A stretch of DNA of 64,000 nt from Octopus sinensis (taxonomy: Eukaryota), in contig NC_043002.1 of NCBI RefSeq assembly GCF_006345805.1, positions 60,450,001-60,514,000 of the forward strand, written 5' to 3'. The position numbers were made by a program. Of the stretch, positions 1 through 60,000 are shown one piece after another. The number at the start of each line of letters is the position of its first letter. Within the stretch, counting starts at the first letter, position 1.

Positions 1-3000
1 CTTGACCTCCCATAGCTTGCACTATGTCCAACTCAAGTAATACTTCATTGTAAATGACGTTATTGAACGTGGCAAGATGTATAGATAGATTCACAACTGT
101 TGTATGTCACTCGTGGATTTCGAAGCCCAGGATGCCCCACATTACCTCCTTAGAGGTAACACAGTTGCCCAACTTATATTGCTGAATTTCATCTGCCTGC
201 CTGGCCGCTTGCGCAAGTCCAAAAACCGCTATATCTGAGCTCATATTTATGTATTTAAATACATATTTAATACTTTTTATAGAGCTGCATGACTCAACAT
301 TAACATCAGCGTGCAATGTTTAGATAACAATGGGTTGTACAGCACAATCCACCTGTTGTCCCTAACCATCCCTTGACCATTAACTTTGAGCTTGGTAGTG
401 TTCAGGGGGATCAAATTAGAATGGATGGATTTTTTCCCTTGGCTAGGAATATGAATGGGTTATTTCGCTTGGCAGTTAAAGGAAAATATATGAATGCGGA
501 CCCCTTCTAGGGATCCTAGATACCCAATTATAACTTTTTTTAAAACTTCAATGCACATAGTAACAGACTGGATGTTACTTTAACATTTTGCAAAGTATCA
601 CGGAAATTCCTTAACGGGTGCAGAAGGCAACTTGACACAATTAGACATCCCGGCATCCAAATAGACAACTTACGGTTACATATGTATGTATATATATATA
701 TATATATATATATATATATATGTAAAAGTAAAAAAATATACAAACTGGGACAAGAACGTGAAACATTTAGAAGACGACACAAAAAACACGGACGGGATTT
801 TCGAAGCCCTCAGTCATCAGTCAAGAACCGGATCATCTTCGCAATTTCGGCTGATTAATCTTGAGATTGCTCCGATCTGGGCAGCCCCCAAGGGAAATCT
901 AAGCCAAGCGCATTAGATTCCTTGGAAGAAAGCCTCGAAAGTATACAACACAGGGACGGAAAACGGACGATGTTACACGAATAAAAATACAAAAACGTAA
1001 AAAAACAATAATGATGCACGAATAAGAATACACACACACACACACACACACACACATATATTATAATATATATATATATATTATATATATATATATATAT
1101 ATATATATATATATATATATATACATATATATATATGTATATATATGTATGTGTGTGTATTTCTTGTCTGTCTCCCCACCACCACCACCACCATCATCGC
1201 TTGATAACCGATGTTGGTGTGTTTACGTAAACGTACCTTAGCGGTTCGGCAAAAAGAGACTGATAGAATAAGTACTAAGCTTACAAATAATAACACCCGA
1301 AGTAGAATTGTTCGACTAAACGTGGTGCTCCAACATGGCCACATTCAAATCACTGAAACAGTTGAAAGAATAAAAGAATCACAGAATCAAAGAATAGAAG
1401 AATAAAAATAAAGTAGAAAATAAACACCTATGGGGTTTTCTTATTGGTTTGTGTATGTATATGTATACATATGCTGAATAAAATACACATGAGTCACAAC
1501 GTATTCTATGTACATGTCCAAAAGTACAAATCTAGAATGTGCATTAAAATATTCATTTACATATCCGAATGAATAACGGTTTATTAGGAAGTTTTACTAG
1601 ATAAGCATTATAACGATTAATTTTCAAACTTTCATCTATCCTTGATTCTGTTTTTTTTTTTCACATATTGCTAATCCTCTATATCTTTCCACGGCTATAT
1701 TTATTACCAAACCAATAAGAAAAATCTGTAGGTTTTCATTTTTATTTTATTTTATGTTTTAACATTTATTTTTTAAATTTTATCTTTTTAGTTTGATTTT
1801 ATTTTTTATTATGAAAATGTTTAAGCATATTTTAAATTTGTTTTCTAATATATGGTATATTCATGAATATATATAACCTATCAGTTACTATATATAGCTT
1901 TTAACTTCTTTAACTCACTAATACTCAGTATGCATCCTGCAAAGCCAAAATGATAATCTAAGTTCCATAACCTCATAATTAAGCCTCAAGAAATCCTGCC
2001 CTCTTATAGTTAGAATATGATACCTTCCTTAGCTTTTAAGCAAATGCTTAGAACTTCTGATCAGCTAGGTAATAAGACTGAAACATATATGTAGGTTCCC
2101 TTATTTCATTTATGTGCTTTACAACTTGATTTTATAACATAGGTTTTGTTCCAAGTATCCCAATACTGAGTTCGCAAAAACTGGAGCAAATCACCTCCCC
2201 ATAGCTGTACCTCGAATCTCGGGGTAGTTTTTGTTTCATTGAAAACGAAAAATTTTGTTTTCGAGGATGAAGCTGACCGCATCTCGTATTAAGGTTACAA
2301 TAAATCTACTGGGGATGGCTTTTCTATGTTTCTCGACCTGATATTTTATGGCAGTAATTCCCAAATTATGTGGAACGTTCGTATATAAGTTTGTTACAGT
2401 GAATTAAATTATGTTGTTTTGTTGAGCAGATGTGTCAGGAAATCGACGTCTTTCCGAATGAATCTGGGTATGTGACAGCATAGTGGTTTGAGAAGCATGT
2501 CGACCGGCTGGTTCAGCTATAATGGGTATACATCTATATATTCCTTTTATACAAAGAGTGGAAATTTTAAGATGTTTCTATTCTTACATACATACCAACT
2601 AATTCAATCTAAATTCCAATCTTATTAGACTATTTTGTTCTTCACAAATGTATGTAGATGTACTGATTCCCCACAGAGATAGACAGATAGATAGATAAAT
2701 CGATATATATGTATGTATATGCGCGCTACGTATCTTTAAGATACAGGGAACCAAACCCAAATATTTTACATACCACCAAACACATACTCACATTTACACA
2801 CACACATACACACGCATATGTACATATGTATGAATGTGTGGAACCTTGGAAAGTGTCTTCTACTATAGCCCCGGGCCGACCAAAGCCTTGTGAGTGGATT
2901 TGTTAGACGGAAACTGAAAGAAGCCCGTCGTATATATATATATATAATATATATATATATATATATATATATATATATATATATATATATATATAAGTGT

Positions 3001-57000: not shown

Positions 57001-60000
57001 ACGATCGTTGCATGCGACTCCATTTAATTGAACAATGCAATCATTTCATCAATTTAAAATGTAGGGCTATCTTCAACTGCATAAAAATATAGAATTTAGT
57101 TAAATCCGAAGGGTTCATTTGCATAGTTTTCTTATCCAAAATCACAAAGCGGATAAGTAGACAGACAGCGAACATGTTTTATCAACAACATCATAGTTAT
57201 AAGTGAGATGTTTTCGAAGGAAGACACTGCTTATCATTGAGATGATATTTGTTATTCAGATTTACTAGTGGTGGGGAGTTAGTTTTAATTTATAGACTGG
57301 TTTATCAAGTCTAATAGAAACTAGAATCTATCCTTTATGGATAGGATAAAAAGACAGCATAATTAAATCTCAGAATGAGATTGAAACAGTAATCGCTCGA
57401 TAATGTAAAGTATAGAAGCCATCTTATCATGGCTAACCACATTGGGGAGGGGGTGTTACTGTAGCTTTATAGCCCCAAGAGATCGTCGTCTCTAGCTGGC
57501 TTACAGTTTAATTTGAAGTAAAAACGATTTGGTCCAGTAAGAATATAATTCAGCTAAGTTTGCAGGCTAAAGCTGCAGGGGTAGGGAGAGTAAAATATAT
57601 ACCATTAGCTATTTGACAACTATAAAAGCAATGTTAGATACATTTTAGTGTTGTTTTAAAAAAAATCAATTAGAAGAATATTTCAGAATATTTTCAGAAC
57701 TATCAGAAGAATGGAGAATATAGAAATAATTCCATATTTATATATTTCTATACTAACTTAATATATATTTATAGTTAATTATTAAATAGTAATTTTTGGT
57801 ATTAATAAAGGAAAATTAAGTTAAAGGAATATGTTAAAAATTTATATATTATATGTTGACTTTATTTAGAGCATATTTCTTATATTATAAAATGAACTGT
57901 GAATTACACCAGTATAGTTTTATATAAGTTAAGTATGAAATTTATAGAGATATATTATAAATAAATAAAATGTTATAGTGAGTAAATAGGTAAGAAATTG
58001 GTTTAAAATTAAAGTAAAGAAATGAAAATGAATATAATAAAAATATAAATCTTTGTAGAATGTTATAGACAAGGGGTAGAACAGATTTTTTATCCAAAAA
58101 CTTATAAGATATACTTAGCTTATTTATACTAATAGGTAAGGTAAGTTGTTAGAATAAATTTCATAATTTTATAATTTCTAGACTAAAAATTATATTTACT
58201 TATCATGAGGATATCTATAAATGAGTAGTGTTTAATGCCGGGAAAAGAAAAGATCAAGTTATTGGACAAAAATTATATTATGAACAAAACTGTTATAAAA
58301 TTATGGGTTTTATTTTAGATTTAAGAAAATGCTATTATTAATCCTAACATGATAATTTATAATTTTTTAATTGGTACCTATGAAATTATATATAATATAT
58401 TTTTATAAAGTTTTCTAATACATACAAAGATCATGAGGGTAGAGCGATTTGAGAGAAAGAGAGAAGAAGTAATTTCTCAAAAAAGTTAAATAATATTATC
58501 TATTTTTATCAGGTTGTAAATATCAATTAAGGAGATTTAGAAGGTTTTTTAAGAGGATATTCCAAGTATATAAGATATTAATTGACTCACATACCAAATC
58601 CTTAAATAACAATGGAAGGGAGATAACCAAAAATGCAAATAAAAAATAAAGACAAATAGAATTATTATTTTGGAAATCTTTTATTTTATATTAAGAGTAC
58701 AGTATGGTTATATGGGGTATAATAATTTAGGCTTATATAAAGGAATTATTATAATATCGAAAAAAGATTAGGTGGAGTAGAATCATCGTAGAAATAGATG
58801 TGAGAATTACCAAATCCTTAAAATTATTGTGGAGTAACTATACAACTTATTAACTTCATTAGATATATAGAATTTATGCAATAATTTAAAAAGTTTTTTA
58901 AATACTTTATTCAACTTTATTCAATTTGTCTATGTTATTAAATTTCTTAATATCTAGTGCTGATTAAATAATTAATATAGCAGGATATGCTATTACTGCA
59001 TTGATTTTTTAAAAAGTCAATAGGTAAATATTATGATTTAAAATTCAGGAATAAGAAAATGCTATTTTCTAAAATATTTAAAGGTACGGGTAGGACAATG
59101 TATTCACGATACCCCTGGTTCTAAACGGGGATTTAATAAGTTTACATTATCCCTATGTTTCAAAATTTCATATATCAGTGTCTTCTTTTGAAAAAATCTC
59201 AGCTATAACTATGATGTTGTTGATAAAACATCTACTTTGTGATTTTGGATAATAAGAAGTATATACAAATGAATCATTCGTATTTAACTAAATTCTATAT
59301 TTTTATGCAGCTGAAGCTTGCTCTACATTTTAAATTGAGGTACTATTTGCATTGTTCAATTAAATGGAGTTGCAAGAAACGATCGTACTGCATTACCTCT
59401 GGATATCCGTGTTGCTTATTTTGATGATAATCACATCATTTTGAATTATATGGATAATACCATACTAAATTCTGGTTCCTTAATCTTAAGTACCATATTC
59501 ATCTGAATCAAAGTCTTACTGAACATATATATATATATACGAGGGTGAGTCAAAAAGTAATGTGATTTTGTTTAGGACATGTATAAGTACCAGCACATGA
59601 TCATATATCATACATCAGAATGAAGCTAGTCCTATGTGGATCACATCCCCACTTCTCAACATAGTCACAGTTTCTCTCAATAGTGATGTTCCACCTTCGA
59701 ATGAGAGCATGTATCCCTGCCCAGTAAAATTCTGTTGACTGTTCTTTGAGCCACATCTTCACTACAGTTTTCACTTCTTCATCACTGGAATAATGTTTGC
59801 CTCTGAAACCCTCTTTCATGGGGCCGAAGAGATGATTGTCTGAAGGCGCTAAATTATTCCACTGACGAGAAAGTGAAAACTGTTGTGAAGAAATAGCTCA
59901 AAGAACCGTCAACAGAATTTTATGGGACAGAGAAACATGCTCTCATTTGAAGGTGGAACATTGCTATTGAAAGAAACGGTGACTATTTTGAGAAGTAGGG

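What the first reader, a model, noticed from the sequence alone, without database searches (positions are those of the whole stretch)
700..59522. High density of HHR elements in (TA)n tracts alongside PLE remnants
Seen: HHR-bearing elements at 3806, 26494, 28070, 32715, 41387, 55507 and 56962 all abut (TA)n. PLE RT (1560-2600) and EN remnants (4780, 32715) are in the same window, and the 32715 EN ORF leads directly to an HHR. Inference: TA-microsatellite-preferring PLEs service a diverse set of non-autonomous ribozyme RNAs. If the region is transcribed it would have self-cleavage sites on both strands.
Basis: partly seen in the sequence, partly recalled or inferred. Interest (0 to 1): 0.7.

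Follow-up and report, generated by a model that had tools for sequence, protein, structure and literature searches.

The report
Ribozyme-bearing retroelements inserted in TA microsatellites
This probably octopus DNA holds about eight insertions of Penelope-like retroelements and their short non-coding derivatives, each carrying a hammerhead self-cleaving RNA motif and each sitting inside a TA repeat, a pattern already described in other invertebrates.

Summary
My own hammerhead (HHR) descriptor, run blind to TA repeats, finds 7 exact-core type-I HHR motifs in the window. Dinucleotide shuffles give a mean of 0.15 and a maximum of 2 in 300. It also finds one U3-A8 core variant and two decayed copies.

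Every insertion abuts (TA)n, and 6 of 7 complexes have it on both sides. The HHR always lies 27-174 nt from a TA tract on its 3' side; a random site is that close with P about 0.14.

The endonuclease remnant at 32700-32978 is followed 85 nt later by an HHR. It and the remnant at 4780-5082 belong to the Hydra clade of Penelope-like elements (PLEs), for which Craig et al. 2021 report (TA)n insertion and canonical HHRs. A different PLE starts at 63805 and is 80% identical to an Octopus vulgaris protein.

The non-coding HHR elements are partial tandem and inverted multimers, the PLE/retrozyme architecture.

Not confirmed:
- The "RT 1560-2600" has motif-level support only, at about 2130-2520.
- No HHR reaches Rfam's gathering score.
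- Self-cleavage, mobilisation by the PLE enzymes and genome-wide enrichment are untested.

Verdict: a real feature and a new member of a known kind; interest is modest.

The parts
3810..4242 (.). E1: inverted-repeat HHR element. Arms are 3802-3976 and 4242-4067 (96% identical). (TA)n 3634-3809 lies on its left; only an 8-bp TA remnant lies on its right.
3854..3934 (-). Canonical type-I HHR: CUGAUGA core, helix II of 6 bp with a long insert, helix III formed by a 6-nt palindromic segment, GUC cleavage site, helix I of 4 bp.
4109..4189 (+). Mirror copy of the E1 HHR on the other strand.
3973..4023 (-). Centre of E1: 51 bp that are 100% identical to 2144-2194 in the RT-like remnant.
2130..2520 (-). 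RT-like remnant in at least 3 frames. It has a LYTNVPH-type motif, which I recall as typical of PLE RT block 2. It is not confirmed by any profile.
   Evidence: translations. Negative. Leads only.
4780..5082 (+). Decayed Hydra-clade GIY-YIG endonuclease remnant with stops and frameshifts. No HHR was detected downstream.
   Evidence: (E 0.06)
26498..26977 (-). E2: 1.34 copies of a 360-bp non-coding unit. The 124-bp terminal direct repeats are 99% identical. (TA)n lies on both sides (26478-26497 and 26980-26996).
26671..26713 (-). HHR with the U3-A8 covariant core: helix I 6 bp, helix II 4 bp, helix III a 4-nt palindrome. It resembles Rfam HH9.
28071..28552 (.). E3 complex, lying between (TA)n 27968-28070 and (AC)n(AT)n 28553-28659. 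The left arm is minus-oriented and holds the HHR. An internal palindrome spans 28296-28509. The 45-bp right tail is shared with E7.
28103..28190 (-). HHR with a CUGAAGA core, a U.U pair at the base of helix II, helix I of 5 bp and helix III of 2 bp.
32699..33136 (+). E4: 5'-truncated Hydra-clade PLE, holding the last ~78 aa of the EN plus a 3' UTR with an HHR. (AT)n 32636-32698 lies on its left; (CA)n(TA)n 33137-33178 on its right.
33063..33117 (+). HHR 85 nt after the EN stop codon: CUGAAGA core, one unpaired U after A9, helix II 8-9 bp, helix I 6 bp.
41386..41582 (.). E8: short element between two (TA)n tracts (41311-41385 and 41583-41672). Most of it is a near-perfect palindrome.
41516..41568 (+). 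HHR with a CUGAAGA core, helix II of 3 bp above a U.U pair, helix III 4 bp and helix I 7 bp. Helix I spans the centre of the palindrome.
   Evidence: no Rfam HHR row
55509..56940 (.). E5: two head-to-head arms, each a 5'-truncated partial tandem of a 487-bp non-coding monomer, 97.8-100% identical. (TA)n lies on both sides. The arms end at monomer positions 128 and 232.
55631..55733 (-). HHR of the left E5 arm: CUGAUGA core, U.U at the base of helix II, helix I 6 bp.
56611..56717 (+). HHR of the right E5 arm, with helix I of 8 bp.
56964..59524 (.). E6-E7 complex between (TA)n 56941-56963 and 59525-59539. Inverted HHR segments 56959-57149 and 59429-59235 are 87% identical. A 95-bp tail is present at the right end only. 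The 2.1-kb interior has no detected coding remnant.
56994..57082 (-). Decayed HHR of the E3 family, with C3U and A13C.
59305..59393 (+). Decayed HHR of the E3 family, with A9C. All helices are intact.
63805..63999 (+). Linker (C-x4-C-xx-C) and the start of the GIY-YIG domain of a canonical C-terminal-EN PLE. It is 5'-truncated, joined directly to an X-left repeat, and runs off the window.

Best explanation
The window holds eight insertion complexes of Penelope-like retroelements (PLEs) and of short ORF-less elements built like them. I call the complexes E1-E8 and treat E6-E7 as one. There are also two further PLE coding remnants.

Shown:
- Each complex lies inside or at the edge of a (TA)n microsatellite.
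- Each carries a type-I hammerhead motif near the end that abuts the repeat.
- Each has PLE-type architecture: 5' truncation, partial head-to-tail tandems (pseudo-LTRs), head-to-head inverted copies, and a tail at one end only.
- Two coding remnants belong to the Hydra clade and one to a Neptune/Nematis-like clade.

Inferred mechanism:
- A PLE GIY-YIG endonuclease with its zinc-finger-like linker nicks (TA)n.
- The RT primes on the nick and copies the element RNA from its 3' end.
- Template jumps give the tandem and inverted arrangements.
- The hammerhead cuts multimeric transcripts to unit length, probably as a dimer where helix III is short and palindromic.
- The ORF-less elements (E1, E2, E3/E6/E7, E5, E8) are retrozyme-like passengers that borrow the PLE enzymes.

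E5, whose copies are 98-100% identical, is a recent event. The E3/E6/E7 family, at 80-87% identity, is old.
For: HHR motifs. There are 7 exact-core sites, against a mean of 0.15 and a maximum of 2 in 300 shuffles. There is also one U3-A8 variant with a sub-threshold HH9 alignment and two decayed homologues. The three-copy consensus of that family is an intact HHR, with 34 of 39 cells paired and one compensatory U-A to C-G change in helix I.

Position relative to TA. The scan was blind to TA, yet none of the 7 exact-core sites nor the U3-A8 site lies away from a TA tract. The distance from the HHR 3' end to the next TA tract of at least 10 bp is 27-174 nt at all 7 independent loci. A random site is that close with P=0.142, so all 7 has P about 1e-6. 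Using only tracts of at least 20 bp, 5 of 7 loci qualify. Nine of the 30 TA tracts of at least 20 bp have such an insertion at an edge.

TA is the target, not part of the element. The two E5 arms end at different monomer positions, 128 and 232.

Coding remnants. The E4 ORF matches a 702-position profile of ~700-aa proteins at positions 624-701, E 1.4e-12. Those proteins show RWK, ADKT, a CxC-x5/6-C linker, no cysteines in the GIY-YIG core, and CxxC..E..N..CxH. These are the Hydra-clade traits listed in PMC8557442 section 11, which also reports that almost all families insert into (TA)n and that canonical HHRs were readily detected.

HHR variants have precedents. In PLE HHRs: an unpaired base at the 5' end of helix II, a U3-A8 core, and paired HHRs on opposite strands 100-700 bp apart (PMC4209133 passages). 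In a retrozyme HHR: a U.U pair at the base of helix II (PMC7229834).

RNA structure. The E5 and E2 monomers fold more stably than their shuffles when treated as circles (z -6.6 and -3.7; two control stretches gave -1.2 and +1.1).
Against: - No motif reaches an Rfam gathering score. E4 and E8 get no hammerhead row even when searched alone.
- Global shuffles destroy palindromes, so they understate chance for E8 and E5.
- There is no intact autonomous PLE in the window.
- The RT-like remnant is unconfirmed.
- Apart from 51 bp shared by E1 and that remnant, the ORF-less elements share nothing detectable with the coding remnants. Which PLE moves which passenger is therefore open.
- Each E5 arm has one complete HHR, so these loci cannot release a monomer.
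- E8's HHR competes with a long perfect hairpin.
- In three families helix II starts with a U.U pair.
- With three sequences the covariation count is not significant (160 of 500 shuffles reach it).
- Enrichment was measured in one window only.
Confidence: 0.8

Rival explanations
1. The HHR-like motifs are chance matches in AT-rich, palindrome-rich repeat DNA. The elements would then be unrelated repeats that happen to lie near abundant TA tracts.
For: No Rfam gathering-level hit. The relaxed descriptor with one core mismatch also picks 3 sites I regard as chance: 14789, 45490 and 47366. The U3-A8 descriptor hits in 16 of 200 shuffles. TA tracts are frequent: 49 tracts covering 3.1% of the window.
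Against: There are 7 exact-core sites against a shuffle mean of 0.15, and 0 of 300 shuffles reach 5. All lie within 174 nt of a TA tract on the correct side. One sits 85 nt after a PLE endonuclease stop codon. The three-copy family consensus restores an intact core.
Confidence: 0.03
2. The ORF-less palindromic elements (E1, E5, E8) are MITEs of TA-targeting Tc1/mariner transposons, or non-autonomous Helitrons, which insert at AT. The hammerhead-like boxes would be incidental.
For: Mariner pieces at 4547-4777 and 42839-43048 and a Pif1-type helicase piece at 38980-39444 are in the window. The elements are inverted repeats flanked by TA.
Against: E5's outer ends are not inverted repeats of each other: the arms stop at monomer positions 128 and 232. 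Each arm is a head-to-tail partial tandem. E2 has direct, not inverted, terminal repeats. None has 5'-TC...CTRR-3' ends by eye. The E3 and E7 complexes carry a tail at one end only, as drawn for PLEs in PMC8557442 Fig. 2 legend.
Confidence: 0.05
3. The TA repeats are produced by the elements themselves, as simple-repeat tails or slippage at insertion. They would then not be pre-existing targets, and there would be no target preference.
For: Some non-LTR elements end in simple repeats (recalled). TA tracts next to the insertions are sometimes short: 15-23 bp at E2, at the right of E5 and at E7. I could not find a clean empty-site/filled-site pair.
Against: TA lies on both sides of 6 of 7 complexes, including the 5'-truncated ends. 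Element ends vary while the flank stays TA. E5 and E6 share one tract, 56941-56963. X-left repeats are normally followed by a microsatellite and X-right (22020-22500, 53333-53727), but by PLE pieces at 32586 and 63708. Published PLE curation reads this as insertion bias (PMC8557442).
Confidence: 0.07
4. The ORF-less HHR elements are mobilised by a LINE, for example the intact 1239-aa ORF at 9021-12740. The PLE remnants would be bystanders.
For: An apparently intact LINE-type RT ORF is present (RVT_1 E 7.7e-31). No intact PLE is in the window. The retrozyme paper left the mobilising non-LTR family open in the passage I saw (PMC7229834).
Against: The elements share target and architecture with PLEs, not with the LINE copies here. 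E1 contains 51 bp identical to the PLE-RT-like remnant. HHRs are a PLE hallmark (PMC4209133). The Xenopus retrozyme families match PLE pseudo-LTRs (preprint passages).
Confidence: 0.05

Closest known systems
Hydra clade of Penelope-like elements (Craig, Yushenova, Rodriguez, Arkhipova 2021, PMC8557442; section 11 read whole)
   Same: E4 and the 4780 remnant match ~700-aa proteins that carry the RWK and DKT motifs, a CxC-x5/6-C linker, a GIY-YIG core without CCHH, and CxxC/CxH around the conserved E and N. E4 lies in (TA)n and has an HHR after the ORF. The paper lists Mollusca among the host phyla.
   Different: Only the last ~78 aa (E4) and ~100 aa (4780) survive. Several cysteines are mutated and no RT part is present. 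Whether octopus families were among those curated sits in supplements I did not read.
Minimal and variant hammerheads of PLE pseudo-LTRs (Cervera and de la Pena 2014, PMC4209133; passages read)
   Same: Type-I topology; a short helix III with a palindromic loop; an unpaired base at the 5' end of helix II (E4); a U3-A8 core (E2); two HHRs on opposite strands 100-700 bp apart (E1, 175 bp).
   Different: E1, E3 and E5 have 46-68 nt inserts in helix II. E3, E5 and E8 start helix II with a U.U pair.
Metazoan non-LTR retrozymes (Cervera and de la Pena 2020, PMC7229834, passages; Li, Clavereau, Pollet 2026 preprint 10.64898/2026.07.22.740005, abstract and passages)
   Same: ORF-less, low-GC units of a few hundred bp with a type-I HHR, arranged head to tail. 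A U.U pair at the base of helix II is described for axolotl HHR_Amex2. The monomers fold more stably than shuffled sequence. They are proposed to be non-autonomous PLE derivatives.
   Different: The arrays here have only 1.3-1.5 units and one complete HHR per arm, often paired head to head, so they are not long tandem arrays. The E5 monomer (487 bp) is above the 150-450 bp range quoted. circRNA was not examined. Insertion into (TA)n is not mentioned in the passages I saw.
Canonical C-terminal-EN PLEs with a CX2-5CxxC linker (Neptune/Nematis type)
   Same: 63805-63999 has a C-x4-C-xx-C linker followed by a GIY-YIG start containing a cysteine. It is 80% identical to the C-terminus of an 803-aa Octopus vulgaris RT-containing protein.
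   Different: It is truncated by the window end, its clade was not resolved by a tree, and no HHR is visible because the 3' end lies outside the window.

Membership tests
Hammerhead ribozyme, type I (Rfam clan CL00010) | Conserved core CUGANGA ... GAAA ... UH, with H not G | tested here: met
   Exact at 7 sites. E2 has the U3-A8 covariant form. E6 and E7 have 2 and 1 core lesions.
Hammerhead ribozyme, type I (Rfam clan CL00010) | Three helices around the core, with helix I open (type I) | tested here: met
   Helix I 4-8 bp, helix II 3-9 bp, helix III 2-5 bp. Three families need a U.U pair, and one an unpaired U, at the base of helix II.
Hammerhead ribozyme, type I (Rfam clan CL00010) | Score at or above a curated Rfam hammerhead gathering threshold | tested here: not met
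   0 hits at gathering in the window. E2 scores 28.2 bits against 52 for HH9. E4 and E8 get no hammerhead row. E1, E3 and E5 were not searched alone.
Hammerhead ribozyme, type I (Rfam clan CL00010) | Self-cleavage at the UH site | not testable with these tools
   Needs in vitro transcription or RNA end mapping.
Hydra clade PLE | C-terminal GIY-YIG EN without the CCHH motif, with CxxC and CxH around the conserved E and N | tested here: met
   The relatives show it. E4 aligns to profile positions 624-701 with E and N kept but the first C of CxxC and the C of CxH mutated. The 4780 remnant's GIY-YIG core has no cysteine.
Hydra clade PLE | RWK motif, DKT instead of DKG, CxC-x5-C linker, no IFD | tested here: inconclusive
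   RWK, ADKT and the CNC...C linker are present in the retrieved relatives. These parts are missing from both window remnants. IFD was not examined.
Hydra clade PLE | Insertion into (TA)n and a canonical HHR | tested here: met
   E4 lies between (AT)n 32636-32698 and (CA)n(TA)n 33137-33178, with an HHR at 33063-33117. No HHR was found after the 4780 remnant.
Hydra clade PLE | Placement within the Hydra clade in an RT phylogeny | not tested
   No RT part survives in the window, and no tree of the relatives against reference PLEs was built.
Metazoan non-LTR retrozyme | ORF-less unit of a few hundred bp with a type-I HHR, GC below 50% | tested here: met
   E5 unit 487 bp, GC 0.37. E2 unit 360 bp, GC 0.49. 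No ORF of 70 aa or more apart from one low-quality frame at 56800-57045.
Metazoan non-LTR retrozyme | Tandem array with at least two complete HHRs in the same orientation, so that a monomer can be released | tested here: not met
   Each E5 arm has one complete and one 5'-truncated HHR. E2 has one HHR. E1 has two, on opposite strands.
Metazoan non-LTR retrozyme | Expression as circular RNA | not testable with these tools
   No transcript data. The only related result is folding of the monomers as circles.
Canonical PLE (Neptune/Nematis type) | CX2-5CxxC linker followed by a GIY-YIG core with cysteines, downstream of a PLE RT | tested here: met
   The motifs are visible at 63805-63999. The Octopus vulgaris relative P0271 has the RT upstream (DKSG, YVDD). 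The window copy itself lacks the RT.

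The most novel reading that the evidence does not exclude
The octopod genome may host a currently or recently active PLE/retrozyme system. In it, several unrelated ORF-less hammerhead RNAs would share the (TA)n target of their helper endonuclease. Integration would prime at internal, TA-like positions of a circular or multimeric RNA template.

The support for this reading:
- The two E5 arms are 98-100% identical.
- They end at different monomer positions (128 and 232).
- Each starts with a truncated unit, as expected from rolling reverse transcription on a circle followed by a strand switch.

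If true, TA-microsatellite flanks would be a direct genomic signature of which enzyme mobilises animal retrozymes.
Probability: 0.25. Interest if true: 0.5.

Novelty: new member of a known kind. Interest (0 to 1): 0.3.

Why it matters
The finding adds a cephalopod-type example to a known picture: PLEs with hammerheads, retrozyme-like passengers, and TA-microsatellite targeting.

It also shows that curated Rfam thresholds miss all of these motifs in this window, so genome annotation would leave them as unclassified repeats next to microsatellites.

The shared TA target of coding and ORF-less elements is circumstantial genomic evidence for the proposed PLE-retrozyme partnership. I did not see this point stated in the passages I read. 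The word 'microsatellite' occurs 0 times in PMC7229834 and PMC7761336 and once, in another context, in the 2026 preprint. My search for octopus + Penelope + hammerhead ribozyme found 2 papers, of which one was listed, namely Craig 2021.

None of this changes how these elements are thought to work.

Tried and rejected
1. Rfam on the whole window found nothing at gathering score. In E-value mode the output is dominated by microsatellite and palindrome 'miRNA' rows.

2. The simple pattern CTGATGA-N4-30-GAAA gave 3 hits against 1.25 expected, and none is a valid HHR.
   - 799-820(-) has no helix II.
   - 37746-37777(-) belongs to a tRNA-derived SINE family that lacks helix I and U16.1-H17.

3. ARAGORN found 0 tRNAs.

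4. I tried to confirm the RT-like remnant at 2130-2520(-) in several ways, all without success.
   - Pfam at E up to 10: 0 relevant families.
   - Word-index protein search, 'longer' lengths: 6 candidates, none scored.
   - Hydra-clade profile: no hit.
   - tblastn and BLASTP with the Octopus vulgaris PLE protein: none.
   - PDB: only a chance Dicer row, E 0.83.
   - hhalign against 40 Hydra-clade proteins: probability 0.2%.
   - Atlas: best named clusters 0.79-0.88, with RVT_1, DUF8422 and HTH_animal on 12-42% of members. These are leads only.
   - A full-text search for the recalled motif string found 0 papers.

5. I looked for an empty-site/filled-site pair using the X repeat. X-right was not found downstream of E4.

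6. A low-stringency BLAST of E4 against the window found no other copy.

7. I considered and rejected MITE, Helitron and LINE-tail readings (see the rival explanations).

8. The weak Rfam hammerhead row at 28964-29009 was rejected by eye.

Full report
**What the window is.** It has 64,000 bases and no N. GC is 28-43%. It is packed with microsatellites (102 TRF rows) and transposon debris.
- TA-type tracts of at least 10 bp number 49 and cover 1,995 bp, or 3.1%. Thirty of them are at least 20 bp.
- One fragment at the right end is 80% identical over 69 aa to an 803-aa Octopus vulgaris protein. The source is therefore probably an octopod; I did not try to pin it down further.

**Checking the hammerheads.**
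- Rfam calls nothing at gathering score. In E-value mode it lists one hammerhead row, 28964-29009(-), 22.2 bits, E 0.87.
- A plain CTGATGA-N4-30-GAAA pattern gives 3 hits against 1.25 expected, and none is valid.
- I therefore wrote a descriptor with these elements: CUGANGA; helix II closing directly, after one unpaired base, or after one mismatched pair; GAAA; helix III with the A15.1-U16.1 pair; H17 not G; helix I contiguous from the core.
- The strict form finds 3854-3934(-) and 4109-4189(+), plus one poor hit at 16512 with helix I of 3 bp.
- The relaxed forms add 28103-28190(-), 33063-33117(+), 55631-55733(-) and 56611-56717(+), and 41516-41568(+).
- With an exact core and helices of at least 4, 3 and 2 bp, the window has 7 sites. 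Three hundred dinucleotide shuffles have a mean of 0.15 and a maximum of 2.
- Allowing one core mismatch gives 11 sites: the 7 above; 59305-59393(+) with A9C; and 14789, 45490 and 47366, which I take for chance or for a SINE.
- A U3-A8 core descriptor finds 26671-26713(-). That alone is weak (16 of 200 shuffles). Searched alone, however, the stretch aligns end to end with Rfam Hammerhead_HH9 at 28.2 bits (gathering 52), E 1.2e-5 for 111 bp.
- E4 and E8 searched alone get no hammerhead row.
- The three copies of one family (28071-28215, 56964-57110, 59285-59429) align at 86% column identity. Their majority consensus is an intact HHR. The individual copies carry no lesion (E3), C3U plus A13C (E6), and A9C (E7).
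- On the HHR structure 34 of 39 cells pair, against 18-56% when the partner is slid. One helix I pair changes U-A to C-G. With three sequences the shuffle control is not significant (160 of 500).

**Anatomy of the insertions.**
- E1 (3810-4242) is an inverted repeat, 96% identical over 176 bp, with one HHR per arm on opposite strands. Its 90-bp centre contains 51 bp identical to 2144-2194.
- E2 (26498-26977) is 1.34 units of a 360-bp sequence with 124-bp terminal direct repeats, 99% identical.
- E5 (55509-56940) consists of two head-to-head arms of a 487-bp monomer. The left arm holds monomer positions 431-487, then 1-487, then 1-128. The right arm holds 456-487, then 1-487, then 1-232. Identity is 97.8-100%.
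- E8 (41386-41582) is mostly a near-perfect palindrome whose right half carries the HHR.
- The E3 complex (28071-28552) and the E6-E7 complex (56964-59524) share a minus-oriented HHR segment at the left edge and a roughly 45-bp terminal sequence at the right edge. E6-E7 also has a plus-oriented HHR segment and a 95-bp tail at one end only.
- E4 (32699-33136) is a 5'-truncated coding element.

These features are 5' truncation, partial tandems that form pseudo-LTRs, an inverted truncated copy, and a one-sided tail. They are the ones drawn for PLE insertions in Craig et al. 2021 (passages and Fig. 2 legend).

**TA repeats.** Each complex starts at a TA tract, and 6 of 7 have one at both ends. E1 has only an 8-bp remnant on the right.
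- E5 and E6 share the tract 56941-56963.
- From the 3' end of each HHR, the next TA tract of at least 10 bp in the 3' direction is 27-174 nt away at the 7 independent loci. For random positions the median is 1,200 nt and P(174 or less) is 0.142, so all seven has P about 1e-6.
- With tracts of at least 20 bp only, 5 of 7 qualify, because E4 and E7 abut 17- and 15-bp tracts.
It is one window only, and the threshold was chosen after seeing the data.
- The different end points of the two E5 arms show that TA is the flank, not part of the element.

**Coding remnants.**
- The ORF at 32622-32978 finds 207 proteins at E of 1e-3 or better among 1.84 billion, the best at 1e-13. Most are short C-terminal fragments.
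- One 445-aa hit led to 913 relatives (120 listed), typically about 700 aa on 2.3-3 kb contigs. One is from the sea cucumber Apostichopus japonicus.
- A profile of the 63 longest matches the E4 ORF at positions 624-701 of 702 (E 1.4e-12). It matches 4899-5033 weakly (E 0.06).
- tblastn gives 60 rows at 32700-32942 and 30 at 4774-5082, the best E there being 0.002 in two collinear pieces.
- The family consensus shows RWK, ADKT, a CNC-x6-C linker, a cysteine-free GIY-YIG core and CxxC..E..N..CxH. These match the description of the Hydra clade, whose families almost all insert into (TA)n and have readily detected canonical HHRs (PMC8557442 section 11).
- Pfam itself gives at most weak GIY-YIG hits, in 2 of 26 relatives.
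- The stretch left of the 4780 remnant (4547-4777) is a mariner HTH (E 1.6e-13) and not part of the endonuclease.
- 63805-63999 is the linker and GIY-YIG start of another, canonical PLE.

**The RT claim.** Translations at about 2130-2520(-) look like PLE RT blocks to me. That motif knowledge is recalled, and a text search for the motif found no paper. Every sequence or profile test was negative, and the Atlas gave leads below 0.9 only. Its 51-bp identity with the centre of E1 ties it physically to an HHR element.

**How it most likely works.** What is shown is the insertion sites, the architecture, the motifs and the clade of the EN remnants. The rest is inferred from PLE biology as described in the papers cited.
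- A GIY-YIG endonuclease with its zinc-finger-like linker nicks (TA)n.
- Reverse transcription is primed on the nick.
- Template jumps create tandem and inverted copies.
- The hammerhead trims multimeric transcripts. It probably acts as a dimer where helix III is a 2-3 bp stem with a palindromic loop (PMC4209133 passages).
- ORF-less elements ride on the same enzymes, as proposed for animal retrozymes (PMC7229834 passages; 2026 preprint abstract and passages).

The HHR peculiarities seen here all have printed precedents: an unpaired base after A9, the U3-A8 core, a U.U pair at the base of helix II, and pairs on opposite strands. Folded as circles, the E5 and E2 monomers are more stable than their shuffles (z -6.6 and -3.7), while two arbitrary control stretches are not (-1.2 and +1.1). 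That is only two controls.

**Against the reading.**
- There is no curated-threshold Rfam hit.
- There is no intact PLE in the window.
- There is no detectable similarity between E4's 3' end and the passengers.
- Each arm has one complete HHR, so these particular loci cannot release monomers.
- E8's HHR is buried in a long hairpin.

**Comparison and verdict.** This is the known combination of PLEs, hammerheads and TA-microsatellite targeting, plus retrozyme-like derivatives, in what is probably an octopod genome. I file it as a new member of a known kind.
- The supplements of Craig et al. 2021 were not read and may already list the octopus families.

Noticed in passing
9021-12740 (-): An uninterrupted 1239-aa ORF with a LINE-type reverse transcriptase (RVT_1 E 7.7e-31, weak zf-RVT). 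It may be an intact non-LTR element.
   Followed up: partly
14491-15210 (-); 27168-28001 (-): Further RT pieces. 14491-15210 hits RVT_1 at 1.2e-7. 27168-28001 looks like a LINE C-terminal region by eye but has no Pfam hit. Its 3' end adjoins the TA tract that holds E2.
   Followed up: partly
47234-47440 (+); 37674-37881 and 38265-38058 (inverted pair around a (TTA)n tract): A SINE-like family with a tRNA-like head (by eye; ARAGORN calls no tRNA). It carries CUGAUGA and GAAAC boxes but has no helix I and no U16.1-H17, so it is not a hammerhead. It could mislead motif scans.
   Followed up: partly
22020-22500, 53333-53727 (complete); pieces at 1146-1387, 2835-2930, 24458-24578, 32586-32622, 52734-52777, 54621-54689, 62655-62719, 63708-63805: Repeat family 'X', built as left part, (TA)n/(CA)n microsatellite, right part. 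At 32586 and 63708 the left part is followed by PLE sequence instead of the right part. This suggests its internal microsatellite is a PLE landing site.
   Followed up: partly
4547-4777 (+); 42839-43048 (-); 59604-59897 (-): Mariner-type transposase pieces: HTH_48 at 1.6e-13 and Transposase_1 at 2.6e-12. The third is mariner-like by eye only and has no Pfam hit.
   Followed up: partly
38980-39444 (-); 110-319 (-): A Pif1 helicase 2B domain (2.6e-15) and a Helitron-like Rep/helicase stretch. The second is by eye only and has no Pfam hit.
   Followed up: no
41673-41753 (+) and about 860-905 (-): An 81-bp piece lies between two TA tracts next to E8. It shares a ~27-nt G-rich box with the 722-1029 segment, which also lies between TA tracts. 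No HHR is present and its nature is unknown.
   Followed up: no
61209-61304, 20359-20431, 41481-41558, 56114-56231 and many others: All sub-threshold Rfam 'miRNA' rows are microsatellites or the centres of the E5 and E8 palindromes, not miRNA genes.
   Followed up: yes
39719-40232; 44538-45007: A 165-bp tandem repeat (3.1 copies, 93% match) and a 261-bp tandem repeat (1.8 copies, 90% match) of unknown origin.
   Followed up: no
4243-4388: A 146-bp segment separates the right end of E1 from the (AT)n tract at 4389-4466. It may be a later insertion that split the microsatellite.
   Followed up: no
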